Sequence record: OR699282.2
DNA from: Escherichia phage BAU.Micro_ELP-22
Strand: one strand, 5' to 3'
Length of the DNA: 64,000 nt
The notes beneath the pieces were generated by a model. That model saw only the letters and a program-made list of their open reading frames with translations. It did not search any database and was not told the origin of the DNA. The position numbers and the translations under genes are program-made. Below, piece after piece: positions 3,181 to 7,071 of this stretch (the stretch's first letter is position 1; each line of letters begins with the position of its first letter).

Positions 3181-3282
<102 letters not shown>

Positions 3283-4161: not shown

Positions 4162-4344
4162 GTGAATATGATGCTATCACACAAAACAGCAACTGTTGAA
4201 AATATTGAATCATTATCTGCACAAGAATTGGTTGACAAAATTAAAGAAGTATGTGATAATAATGGCATTGATATGAATGATACATTTATTAGTGTAGGTT
4301 ATGGTGATTTAGAAATTCAATCTAAAACACTATATTATACTTGA
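4162..4344 (+). CDS. hypothetical small protein
   Basis: 60-codon ORF with AAAGGTGA SD. Confidence 0.45.
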   Translation: MNMMLSHKTATVENIESLSAQELVDKIKEVCDNNGIDMNDTFISVGYGDLEIQSKTLYYT

Positions 4345-4400
4345 CTAAATAGTTCAGTACCGAAGGAGATTAATATGTTTAAAGATGAACGTCCAGATTT

Positions 4401-4441
<41 letters not shown>

Positions 4442-4449
4442 GAATTCCA

Positions 4450-4795
4450 CAATCAGACGTATATGGTGTAAGTTACGTCGATGCAATCCAGAACAAGATC
4501 TCTGGTACTCTAGGAAGTGGTGAATGTTAACCTAGACGGGTTTGATAATTGGACGATAGGCAATTATTACTTGACTAGCAGGTTGAAACTAGAGGTGACA
4601 GTCCTTCACCAAACTGGAAAACCGGATGGACTTTTATTTAAAAGGGTAAGGCGTGGAAATATGTTTACAGAAGTTGCTTTTAGTAGCCTGTACGCCCCAC
4701 GTCAAGGTAGCCGAAAGGCAAGTTAAAACGGATGGTTATAAAGCTGAATTAACAGCGGCGTTTAAAAGCGTCACCATCCATTTTTTTTAATTAAA
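4450..4795 (+). ncRNA. candidate structured small RNA(s) in tRNA cluster
   Basis: GC-richer stretch downstream of promoter 4413-4441, ends in hairpin GGATGGT..CACCATCC plus T8; only a weak 69-codon ORF without SD. Confidence 0.3.
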
Positions 4796-4804
4796 GTTGG
4801 TGAT

Positions 4805-5194
<390 letters not shown>

Positions 5195-6522: not shown

Positions 6523-6777
<255 letters not shown>

Positions 6778-6812
6778 CAGGGGAGGTTGTGATTCCCGAT
6801 TCAGTAGCTTAT

Positions 6813-6935
<123 letters not shown>

Positions 6936-6936
6936 T

Positions 6937-7071
<135 letters not shown>

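What the first reader, a model, noticed from the sequence alone, without database searches (positions are those of the whole stretch)
4442..4800. Candidate small stable RNA(s) embedded in the tRNA cluster
Immediately downstream of a consensus promoter (4413-4441) lies ~350 bp of GC-richer sequence ending in a stem (GGATGGT..CACCATCC) plus T8 at about 4745-4795; the only ORF (69 codons) has no SD. T4-type tRNA clusters are known to carry small stable RNAs of unknown function, so this may be an analogous species.
Basis: partly seen in the sequence, partly recalled or inferred. Interest (0 to 1): 0.45.

Follow-up and report, generated by a model that had tools for sequence, protein, structure and literature searches.

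The report
New structured RNA in phage tRNA clusters
The flagged 350 bases do not encode a protein but two small folded RNAs, and the first (about 187 nt, with a pseudoknot) belongs to a family absent from Rfam 15 and unannotated in every phage record seen, which sits among the tRNA genes of at least six unrelated groups of phages; its function is unknown.

Summary
The window is an Asteriusvirus (121Q/PBECO4-like jumbo coliphage). A near-consensus sigma-70 promoter (4413-4441) precedes two non-coding modules.

RNA1 (about 4443-4630) is a structured RNA with seven hairpin or closing helices plus an H-type pseudoknot. Across 15 homologues, 98% of pair cells are standard pairs. 33 of 44 pairs show compensatory changes, against 6-12 in slid controls.

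RNA1 homologues lie on the tRNA strand inside tRNA clusters. They occur in jumbo (Asteriusvirus, Alcyoneusvirus), T4-like (Bragavirus, Ishigurovirus), T5-like (Novosibvirus) and Stephanstirmvirinae phages, often within a few bases of the neighbouring tRNAs. Identity across families reaches 92% while the flanks do not match.

RNA2 (about 4650-4788) is a three-tier hairpin, a GAAA hairpin and a three-way-junction stem followed by T8. It is modular and less well supported.

The 69-codon ORF is broken by stops in five homologues. No Rfam 15 family matches, and T4 rnaC/rnaD, tRNA and tmRNA are excluded.

RNA1 most likely works as a stable trans-acting RNA released by tRNA processing, but its partner is unknown. 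Some sister phages have deleted the cassette.

The parts
4413..4441 (+). Sigma-70-type promoter: TTGACT, 17-nt spacer, TATAAT with extended TG. It is one of four copies of a 22-nt promoter core.
   Evidence: The expected +1 is about 4448/4449 (inference from standard spacing), which would cut into the 5' strand of P1.
4443..4630 (+). RNA1: structured RNA of about 187 nt, a new family. The covariance-model match spans 4441-4630.
   Evidence: 236 bits against model R1. On 15 sequences 98% of pair cells are paired and 33 of 44 pairs have changes on both sides.
4445..4449 (+). P1 5' strand UUCCA, pairing with UGGAA at 4615-4619. This closing helix is the least certain one.
   Evidence: helix 1: invariant in the close group and not supported in KP13-16, L027 or L009. 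An alternative hairpin, CUGG-AAAA-CCGG at 4614-4625, would compete with it (read by eye).
4456..4479 (+). H1 hairpin GACGUA/UACGUC, with a loop containing the conserved GGYG.
   Evidence: helix 2: 6 of 6 pairs have changes on both sides.
4488..4505 (+). H2 hairpin CCAGA/UCUGG.
   Evidence: helix 3: 4 of 5 pairs covary, for example CCG/CGG, CCUU/AAGG and CCCAC/GUGGG.
4509..4536 (+). H3 hairpin UCUAGG/CCUAGA with a conserved AAGUG loop, followed by the near-invariant CGGG (4537-4540; CGGU in SdyM_006).
   Evidence: helix 4: 6 of 6 pairs covary. Alignment shown.
4544..4568 (+). H4 hairpin GAUAAUUG/CAAUUAUU. Its loop carries the invariant GACGAUA (4552-4558).
   Evidence: helix 5: 7 of 8 pairs covary. 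GACGAUA is identical in all 15 sequences.
4569..4592 (+). H-type pseudoknot. S1 is ACUUG (4569-4573) with CAGGU (4579-4583). S2 is CUAG (4575-4578) with CUAG (4589-4592). Loop 3 is the A-rich UNAAA.
   Evidence: helices 6 and 7. Both stems covary: AGUUG/CAGCU and CACUG/CAGUG for S1; CAAG/CUUG and CUGG/CCAG for S2.
4594..4610 (+). H6 hairpin GGUGA/UCACC with a 7-nt loop in which CCU is conserved.
   Evidence: helix 8: variants GGUUA/UAACC, GGUAA/UUACC and GGUCU/AGACC.
4622..4629 (+). Conserved 3' tail CCGGAUGG, apparently single-stranded. AUGG is invariant.
   Evidence: Alignments.
4631..4644 (+). AU-rich palindrome CUUUUAUUUAAAAG linking RNA1 to RNA2. In RaK2, L017 and L018 a new promoter follows this element.
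4650..4703 (+). RNA2 5' module, a three-tier hairpin: P1 GGCGUGG/CCACGUC, P2 UACAG/CUGUA, P3 GUUGC/GUAGC.
   Evidence: fold, z = -3.0. Nearly identical in Alcyoneusvirus. 83% identical to a copy in Kuravirus XT18 in which two P1 positions change (read by eye).
4710..4719 (+). GCC-GAAA-GGC tetraloop hairpin.
   Evidence: The same motif occurs in a tRNA gap of Erwinia phage Cronus.
4730..4788 (+). Three-way-junction stem (GGAUGGU/ACCAUCC enclosing two small hairpins) followed by T8. It is the likely terminator of the unit.
   Evidence: The module recurs on its own in EJP2 and upstream of RaK2 RNA1. 5 of 18 pairs have changes on both sides and 96.7% of cells are paired, against 30-54% in slid controls.
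4517..4726 (+). 69-codon ORF. It is not a gene.
   Evidence: in-frame stops in five homologues. The ORF spans both RNA modules, which occur separately elsewhere.

Best explanation
The region is a non-coding cassette with two structured RNA modules. SHOWN: RNA1 (about 4443-4630) belongs to a conserved RNA family. Its fold has hairpins H1-H4 and H6 and an H-type pseudoknot with an A-rich third loop. H4 abuts pseudoknot stem S1 directly, and one A separates S2 from H6; continuous stacking of these helices is my inference, not a result. The fold is maintained by compensatory substitutions. Unpaired nucleotides are invariant or nearly so: GACGAUA, UGAC..GCAG, GAGGU and AUGG are invariant, and CGGG is near-invariant. 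SHOWN: the family always lies on the tRNA strand inside phage tRNA clusters. INFERRED: in T4-like and T5-like phages RNA1 is released from the polycistronic tRNA precursor. The upstream cut would come from 3' processing of the preceding tRNA; RNA1 starts right after the encoded CCA of tRNA-Gly in PM2. The downstream cut would come from RNase P at the 5' end of the next tRNA, 11-16 nt beyond RNA1. INFERRED: in this jumbo phage RNA1 is made early from a host-type promoter, of the same repeated type as the copy that precedes tRNA-Gly. It then accumulates as a compact stable RNA that acts in trans. The conserved loop, pseudoknot and tail would bind a host or phage factor, most plausibly one linked to tRNA or translation, as a decoy or sponge that helps infection on some hosts. 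SHOWN: RNA1 is an accessory gene that has moved between unrelated phage families. RNA2 (4650-4788) is a second, modular small RNA or 3' domain. Its three-way-junction end serves as the terminator here (inferred). In RaK2 and EJP2 the same module also carries a promoter-like sequence.
For: Structure: 98% of pair cells are standard pairs. 33 of 44 pairs have changes on both sides, against 6-12 in slid controls, and 0 of 500 shuffles reach any observed measure. The same compensations are visible in a structure-blind MAFFT alignment. Strand: conserved G-U pairs (13 of 15 and 14 of 15 sequences at two positions) would be C-A mismatches on the other strand. Context: RNA1 lies between tRNA-Gly and tRNA-Asp in PM2 and SdyM_006, between tRNA-Leu and tRNA-Ser in Proteus phage 1 and KP13-16, and in the tRNA cluster of Aeromonas phage 65, always in the tRNA orientation. 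In metagenomic contig L022 two diverged copies flank a tRNA, and the distal copy ends in a U-rich run. Transfer: identity is 92% to Bragavirus and 85% to Novosibvirus over exactly 4442-4630, with no similarity in the flanks. Not coding. Dispensable: the Asteriusvirus phage G17 keeps only the first 37 nt, and four further Asteriusvirus records (phAPEC6, Sharanji, ECO103 4-12-1, EC22.5-2) match only those 37 nt. Independence from RNA2: RaK2, L017 and L018 place a new promoter right after RNA1, and in L017 it drives a different RNA. RNA2: the fold has z = -3.0, and its 3' module recurs with compensatory changes. Analogy: T4 rnaC/rnaD occupy the same niche. In 2025 they were still of unknown function, and a convergent SNP in rnaD arose in a T4-like phage adapting to a semi-permissive host (PMC12685909).
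Against: No transcript, processing site, stability measurement or binding partner has been observed. Every step after 'conserved structured RNA on the tRNA strand' is inference. With the -10 element at 4436-4441 the expected start is 4448/4449. That would remove the 5' strand of P1 in this phage. P1 is also unsupported in the divergent members. The alignment used for the pair counts was fitted to the model, which inflates the percentage paired. The family is rare: about 55 of 50,697 phage records and a handful of metagenomic contigs. RNA2 has little sequence diversity, so its 5' module rests on a few substitutions. No recurrent neighbouring protein gene was identified, but this was not searched for systematically.
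Confidence: 0.6

Rival explanations
1. RNA1 is a cis-acting riboswitch-like attenuator. A ligand-bound aptamer closes P1 (UUCCA/UGGAA). That prevents the competing 3' hairpin CUGG-AAAA-CCGG (extended by CCA/UGG) from forming. With the following U-run this hairpin would otherwise terminate transcription before RNA2 or the downstream tRNAs.
For: The conservation pattern looks like an aptamer: variable stems, invariant junction and loop nucleotides, and a pseudoknot. The P1 3' strand overlaps the 5' strand of a small hairpin that is followed by U-rich runs in this window, RaK2, L017, L018 and L022 copy a. Here RNA1 lies at the 5' end of a unit that continues into RNA2.
Against: In L022 copy a, RNA1 is the last element before a long U-run, with nothing downstream to regulate. 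In RaK2, L017 and L018 a fresh promoter follows immediately. In PM2, SdyM_006, Proteus phage 1, KP13-16 and Aeromonas phage 65 there is no U-run adjacent to the hairpin and a tRNA follows. The hairpin is only 4+3 base pairs. It is weakened in the Aeromonas-phage members. No Rfam riboswitch matches.
Confidence: 0.12
2. RNA1 is a self-cleaving or otherwise catalytic RNA that helps cut the polycistronic tRNA transcript.
For: It has a pseudoknotted core with invariant unpaired nucleotides and sits directly against tRNA ends.
Against: No match to any ribozyme family in Rfam 15 at E-value up to 10. Host RNase P and tRNA 3' processing already account for release. In jumbo phages RNA1 has its own promoter and needs no excision at its 5' end.
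Confidence: 0.07
3. The stretch encodes a small protein: ORF 4517-4726 (69 aa), or the 45-codon GTG ORF 4653-4790.
For: Both ORFs are open in this window. The 45-codon frame is also open in RaK2.
Against: The 69-codon frame has stops in five homologues. It crosses the RNA1/RNA2 boundary, which carries a roughly 40-nt promoter insertion in RaK2. The 45-codon frame stays open in RaK2 only through a frame-shifted middle part. It has no usable ribosome-binding site. Substitutions are compensatory in helices, not synonymous-biased.
Confidence: 0.01
4. The conservation reflects a DNA-level element, such as a promoter/terminator array, a homing-endonuclease target or a replication or packaging site, rather than an RNA.
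For: The 3' module of RNA2 doubles as a TTGACA-N17-TAYTAT promoter-like sequence in RaK2 and EJP2. Homing endonuclease genes populate these tRNA clusters: a segD-like gene lies next to tRNA-Gly and RNA1 in SdyM_006, and T4 has segB.
Against: Helices include conserved G-U pairs that are strand-specific. 33 pairs covary over 190 nt. The orientation always follows the tRNAs.
Confidence: 0.03

Closest known systems
Phage T4 species 1 and species 2 RNAs (rnaC, 139 nt; rnaD, 119 nt)
   Same: They are small non-coding RNAs embedded in a phage tRNA gene cluster, on the tRNA strand and directly next to a tRNA. Their function was still unknown in 2025 (PMC12685909). The cluster also houses a homing endonuclease (segB, PMC2330249).
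   Different: There is no detectable sequence or structure homology. RNA1 models R1 and R2 give only noise on the T4 region. RNA1 is longer, at about 187 nt, and has an H-type pseudoknot. I saw no tRNA-like T-arm in it, unlike the 3' end of T4 rnaC as read. RNA1 occurs in at least six phage lineages across several families.
GOLLD and ROOL large phage-associated RNAs (Rfam)
   Same: From general knowledge of these families, they are complex structured RNAs of unknown function, often carried by phages and located near tRNA genes.
   Different: They are about three to four times longer and are found mainly in Gram-positive or environmental lineages. No Rfam match to the window or to eight related loci appears, even at permissive E-values.
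Bacterial and phage Y RNA-like RNAs (YrlA) and tmRNA
   Same: They are stable structured RNAs associated with tRNA-like modules and tRNA loci.
   Different: ARAGORN finds no tRNA or tmRNA in 4442-4800. Rfam YrlA and tmRNA models do not hit any RNA1 copy.
Riboswitch aptamers with H-type pseudoknots (for example preQ1, SAM-II, fluoride)
   Same: They share a compact pseudoknot with an A-rich third loop, invariant junction nucleotides and variable stems.
   Different: RNA1 is not in a 5' UTR in most genomes, because it is flanked by tRNAs. It is much larger, and no Rfam model matches.

Membership tests
T4 rnaC/rnaD (species 1 and 2 RNAs) | Located within a phage tRNA gene cluster, same strand, adjacent to tRNAs | tested here: met
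T4 rnaC/rnaD (species 1 and 2 RNAs) | Sequence or structure homology to T4 rnaC or rnaD | tested here: not met
   Models R1 and R2 searched on T4 69000-74000 (L001) give no significant match. The best score is 8 bits, on the wrong strand and outside the genes. blastn of the window region did not list T4.
T4 rnaC/rnaD (species 1 and 2 RNAs) | Accumulates as a discrete stable RNA processed from the tRNA precursor | not testable with these tools
   This needs a Northern blot or RNA-seq of infected cells.
Any Rfam 15 family (4227 models, including ribozymes, riboswitches, 6S, RNase P, tmRNA, GOLLD, ROOL, YrlA) | Covariance-model score at or near the family's gathering threshold | tested here: not met
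   In the window only tRNAs pass gathering. For 4300-4900 at E-value up to 10, the only match inside RNA1 or RNA2 is a 12.5-bit chance hit. Eight related loci at E-value up to 1 give no hit on any RNA1 copy.
tRNA / tmRNA | Cloverleaf, or a tRNA-like domain with a tag reading frame | tested here: not met
   ARAGORN reports nothing between 4146 and 5220.
Protein-coding gene | Reading frame kept open in homologues, with a ribosome-binding site | tested here: not met
   Stops in five homologues. AGGAA abuts the GTG start.
Intrinsic (Rho-independent) terminator, at the 3' end of RNA2 | Stable stem immediately followed by a U-run | tested here: met
   A 7-bp outer stem (4730-4736 with 4773-4779) is followed by T8 at 4781-4788. 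It is atypical because the stem encloses a three-way junction, which is why the simple scan did not list it.
Cis-regulatory riboswitch | Aptamer located in the 5' UTR of the unit it regulates, coupled to an expression platform | tested here: inconclusive
   A competing hairpin plus U-run exists in jumbo phages and L022. It is absent in the tRNA-flanked copies, and L022 copy a has nothing downstream.

The most novel reading that the evidence does not exclude
RNA1 is a new functional class of phage RNA. It would be either a pseudoknotted aptamer/decoy that neutralises a host defence or tRNA-targeting factor, or a new ribozyme. It would spread horizontally as a cassette between tRNA clusters of unrelated phage families, possibly carried by homing-endonuclease-driven gene conversion. 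This would give the first handle on what the long-mysterious small stable RNAs of phage tRNA clusters do.
Probability: 0.25. Interest if true: 0.85.

Novelty: new variant of a known kind. Interest (0 to 1): 0.6.

Why it matters
Small stable RNAs in phage tRNA clusters are long known from T4 (species 1 and 2 RNAs) and still have no assigned function. RNA1 is a second, unrelated family occupying the same niche. It has an unusually clear covariation-supported fold with a pseudoknot and invariant unpaired nucleotides. It has also transferred recently between jumbo, T4-like, T5-like and other phages of Enterobacterales and Aeromonas. It is absent from Rfam 15. Under the match, phage records show either no annotated feature or only 'hypothetical protein'. 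Natural deletion variants such as G17 and culturable hosts make its function directly testable. The result also shows that ORF calls such as 121Q gene 129 over this stretch are probably spurious.

Tried and rejected
- Rfam cmscan, at gathering and permissive thresholds, on the window and on eight related loci found only tRNAs and noise.
- ARAGORN found no tRNA or tmRNA in the region.
- Homology to T4 rnaC/rnaD was rejected by covariance-model searches.
- A host origin or host mimicry was not supported. blastn found no match in 5,426 complete E. coli genomes. The 11 pattern matches in 185,579 bacterial and archaeal genomes were all rejected by the models.
- Widening the family gave only one more Aeromonas-type contig, L051. 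This used two relaxed patterns in IMG/VR and blastn with the divergent members KP13-16 and L009.
- The Erwinia phage Cronus gap and the Kuravirus XT18 non-coding region share short motifs with RNA1 or RNA2 but are not RNA1 members.
- Several ideas were considered by eye and dropped:
  - A group I intron core: the helix order does not fit.
  - A two-piece tmRNA: there is no tRNA-like domain.
  - A CsrA sponge: the GGA motif is not conserved in the Aeromonas-phage and L009 members.
  - A Shine-Dalgarno mimic: GAGGUGA is part of helix H6, which covaries away from that sequence.
  - A T-box-like pairing of the tail UGGR with the UCCA end of tRNA-Gly: suggestive, because tRNA-Gly(UCC) with U73 is adjacent in PM2 (read), but no covariation could be tested.
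- Literature searches found no description of this RNA. A catalogue of about 10,000 candidate viral structured RNAs (PMC10690425) could contain it, but I could not check this.

Full report
**What the window is.** blastn places the region in Asteriusvirus, the jumbo coliphages 121Q, PBECO4 and SP27, at 97-99.7% identity. The finding lies in a tRNA region. ARAGORN and Rfam find tRNAs at 1985, 3087, 3181 (weak), 4071, 5220, 5464, 5547 and 7335.

**Check of the observation.** Each stated feature is present.
- Promoter: TTGACT, 17-nt spacer, TATAAT with an upstream TG at 4413-4441, 11 of 12 matches.
- Repeats: its 22-nt core recurs four times within 800 bp. One copy precedes tRNA-Gly.
- GC content: 40.4% for 4442-4795 against 34.0% for the window.
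- Terminal stem: 4730-4736 pairs with 4773-4779, followed by T8 at 4781-4788.
- ORF: the 69-codon GTG ORF at 4517-4726 exists and has no usable Shine-Dalgarno spacing.

**Two modules, not one.** The blastn hits split the stretch.
- Alcyoneusvirus (RaK2 group) matches 4444-4786 at 81%.
- T4-like Bragavirus phages of Proteus, Morganella and Shigella match only 4442-4630, at 85-92%.
- T5-like Novosibvirus (Proteus phages 1 and 2) also matches only 4442-4630, at 86%.
- Stephanstirmvirinae phage KP13-16 and Aeromonas phage 65-type phages match the core of that segment.
- Kuravirus phages match only 4645-4698.
- In RaK2 a complete promoter is inserted between the two parts.
- In metagenomic relative L017 a promoter after part 1 drives a different RNA.

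I therefore treat 4443-4630 as RNA1 and 4650-4788 as RNA2.

**RNA1 is a structured RNA.** Compensatory changes in at least five hairpins are already visible in a structure-blind MAFFT alignment of eight homologues. I built covariance model R1 from the five closest sequences with a hand-derived structure. Searching all fetched loci recovered further true members:
- four metagenomic relatives of the jumbo-phage type (L016, L017, L018, L021);
- one contig, L022, with two diverged copies flanking a tRNA;
- a KP13-16-like contig (L027);
- a 232-kb Aeromonas-type IMG/VR contig (L044); a second one, the 230-kb L051, was recovered later;
- a divergent copy on a 120-kb IMG/VR contig (L009).

On the 15-sequence alignment, the structure including the pseudoknot gave these counts:
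- 98.0% of 637 pair cells are standard pairs, against 78% in shuffles and 26-42% when partners are slid.
- 33 of 44 pairs have changes on both sides, against 6-12 in slid controls.
- 0 of 500 shuffles reach any observed measure.

The alignment was fitted to the model, which favours pairing. The margin is still very large.

**The RNA1 fold.**
- P1, a closing helix: 4445-4449 with 4615-4619.
- H1: 4456-4479.
- H2: 4488-4505.
- H3: 4509-4536.
- A near-invariant CGGG (4537-4540; CGGU in SdyM_006).
- H4: 4544-4568, with an invariant GACGAUA loop.
- An H-type pseudoknot directly abutting H4. S1 is 4569-4573 with 4579-4583. S2 is 4575-4578 with 4589-4592. The third loop is A-rich (UNAAA).
- H6, one nucleotide further on: 4594-4610, with CCU conserved in its loop.
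- ACCAAAC, then the tail CCGGAUGG (4622-4629).

Conserved G-U pairs make the structure specific to the + strand, which is also the tRNA strand.

P1 is the weakest element. It never varies in the close group and is not supported in KP13-16, L027 or L009. With standard promoter spacing the transcript here would start at 4448/4449, inside its 5' strand. A small alternative hairpin, CUGG-AAAA-CCGG at 4614-4625, could form instead.

**RNA1 is not coding.** The 69-codon frame has in-frame stops in PM2, SdyM_006, RaK2, L017 and L018. The ORF also bridges two modules that occur separately in other phages.

**Genomic context of RNA1.** Every copy is in a tRNA cluster and in the tRNA orientation.
- In PM2 and SdyM_006 it fills the gap between tRNA-Gly(UCC) and tRNA-Asp. 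It starts right after the encoded CCA and ends 11-12 nt before the next tRNA.
- In Proteus phage 1 and KP13-16 it lies between tRNA-Leu and tRNA-Ser.
- In Aeromonas phage 65 it lies upstream of tRNA-Thr.
- In L022 one copy starts immediately after a tRNA and ends in a long U-rich run.

Similarity between families stops exactly at the RNA1 borders. This indicates horizontal transfer of the RNA gene itself. Homing endonuclease genes sit in these clusters: a segD-like gene next to tRNA-Gly and RNA1 in SdyM_006, and segB in T4. T4 SegB is known to drive preferential inheritance of the tRNA region (PMC2330249).

The cassette is dispensable. The Asteriusvirus phage G17 keeps only the first 37 nt of RNA1 and then runs into the homologue of ORF 4805-5194. 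Four further Asteriusvirus records (phAPEC6, Sharanji, ECO103 4-12-1, EC22.5-2) match only those 37 nt.

**RNA2.** The minimum-free-energy fold has z = -3.0, and none of 200 shuffles folds as well. It has three parts:
- a three-tier hairpin (4650-4703);
- a GCC-GAAA-GGC hairpin (4710-4719);
- a three-way-junction stem (4730-4779) followed by T8.

The central part is almost identical between Asteriusvirus and Alcyoneusvirus although the flanks do not align.

The 3' module recurs on its own in two places: in EJP2 between tRNA-Ser and tRNA-Arg, and upstream of RNA1 in RaK2. Across five copies, 96.7% of cells pair and 5 of 18 pairs change on both sides. In RaK2 and EJP2 the same module reads as a TTGACA-N17-TAYTAT promoter at the DNA level. 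Here the -10-like part is degenerate and T8 follows. I therefore read it as the terminator of the unit.

The 5' module has an 83%-identical copy inside a 790-nt ORF-free region of Kuravirus XT18. That region is itself a mosaic of small modules shared among enterobacterial phages.

Evidence for RNA2 as an independent functional RNA is weaker than for RNA1. It is supported by its own promoter in RaK2 and L018.

**Comparison with known RNAs.** No Rfam 15 family matches RNA1 or RNA2 in the window or in eight related loci. There is no tRNA or tmRNA in the region. T4 rnaC/rnaD share the niche but not the sequence or fold. No similar sequence exists in E. coli genomes. None of the pattern matches in bacterial genome contigs was a true member. 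Under the match, phage records show either no annotated feature or 'hypothetical protein'. Four literature searches found no description of this RNA.

**Most likely mechanism.** It is shown that RNA1 is a conserved, strand-specific, pseudoknotted RNA gene that travels with phage tRNA genes. The rest is inferred.
- RNA1 would be released by the host tRNA-processing machinery, or transcribed from an early host-type promoter in jumbo phages.
- It would accumulate as a stable RNA and act in trans.
- Its invariant unpaired nucleotides would bind a factor, plausibly one linked to tRNA or translation, that matters on some hosts.

Three observations fit this: its accessory distribution, its horizontal spread, and the report of a convergent adaptive SNP in T4-type rnaD during adaptation to a semi-permissive host (PMC12685909).

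**Rival mechanisms.**
- Cis-acting attenuator. This is supported by the P1/hairpin competition and U-runs in some genomes. It is contradicted by the tRNA-flanked copies and the terminal L022 copy.
- Ribozyme. There is no supporting match.
- Small protein. This is refuted by comparison.
- DNA-level element. This is contradicted by strand-specific G-U pairs and extensive covariation.

**Verdict.** RNA1 is a new RNA family of a known kind, a small RNA embedded in a phage tRNA cluster, with strong structural support and unknown function.

Noticed in passing
window, whole 64 kb (for example 1217, 3639, 4048, 4427, 6764, 6885, 22275, 36590, 58134): The palindrome CAGTACTG occurs 40 times against about 0.9 expected from dinucleotide shuffles. 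AGTACT occurs 211 times against about 22 expected from base composition. Sites lie in promoter spacers, in non-coding stretches and inside ORFs. The cause is unknown; a regulator site, a modification site or a packaging-related motif are possibilities.
   Followed up: partly
window 6745-7012: An ORF-free stretch of about 265 nt with two TTCAGTACTGAA palindromes (6762, 6883). It ends in the hairpin GGATATTGTTGCAACAGTATCC followed by T6. It resembles RaK2 L003 1010-1180 and may be another small RNA gene. A perfect 12/12 promoter follows at 7015-7042.
   Followed up: no
window 3625, 4034, 4341, 4413: Four copies of the 22-nt promoter core TTGACTAAATAGTTCAGTACTG lie within 800 bp, each heading a small cassette (a tRNA, a short ORF or an RNA). 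The 4341 copy lacks a -10 element and is followed by a ribosome-binding site and a 9-codon ORF.
   Followed up: partly
window 3181-3259: Rfam scores a tRNA at its gathering threshold (29.3 bits) that ARAGORN does not report. Phage G17 annotates tRNA-Arg(tct) at the equivalent position.
   Followed up: no
L045 (phage G17) 1500-1552: The Asteriusvirus phage G17 retains the promoter and only the first 37 nt of RNA1, then runs into the next ORF. This is a natural deletion of RNA1, RNA2, tRNA-Gly and the small ORFs. Four further Asteriusvirus records (phAPEC6, Sharanji, ECO103 4-12-1, EC22.5-2) match only those 37 nt, but their loci were not read.
   Followed up: partly
L008 (Kuravirus XT18) 1014-1802: A 790-nt ORF-free, GC-rich region contains the RNA2 5' module. 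It also contains GGACGAUAUC and ACAGAUGGAG motifs reminiscent of RNA1. Its sub-segments are shared in mosaic fashion with Gamaleyavirus and Klebsiella phages, and one sub-segment is annotated there as a tRNA.
   Followed up: partly
L046 (Erwinia phage Cronus) 1084-1479: A 396-nt unannotated gap between two tRNA-Met genes carries ACUUGCCUAGCAGGUGGAAAC, which resembles the RNA1 pseudoknot. It also carries the RNA2 motif AAGGUAGCCGAAAGGCAAG. It is not an RNA1 member by covariance-model search and is probably another modular RNA.
   Followed up: partly
L003 (RaK2) 1400-1800 and L017 (reverse strand, downstream of RNA1): Further promoter-driven, GC-richer, ORF-free segments lie next to tRNA genes in jumbo phages. 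They look like additional unannotated small RNAs.
   Followed up: no
L022 2106-2610 (minus strand): Two diverged RNA1 copies (194 and 161 bits) flank a single tRNA on a 3.2-kb metagenomic contig. The distal copy is followed by a long U-rich run.
   Followed up: partly
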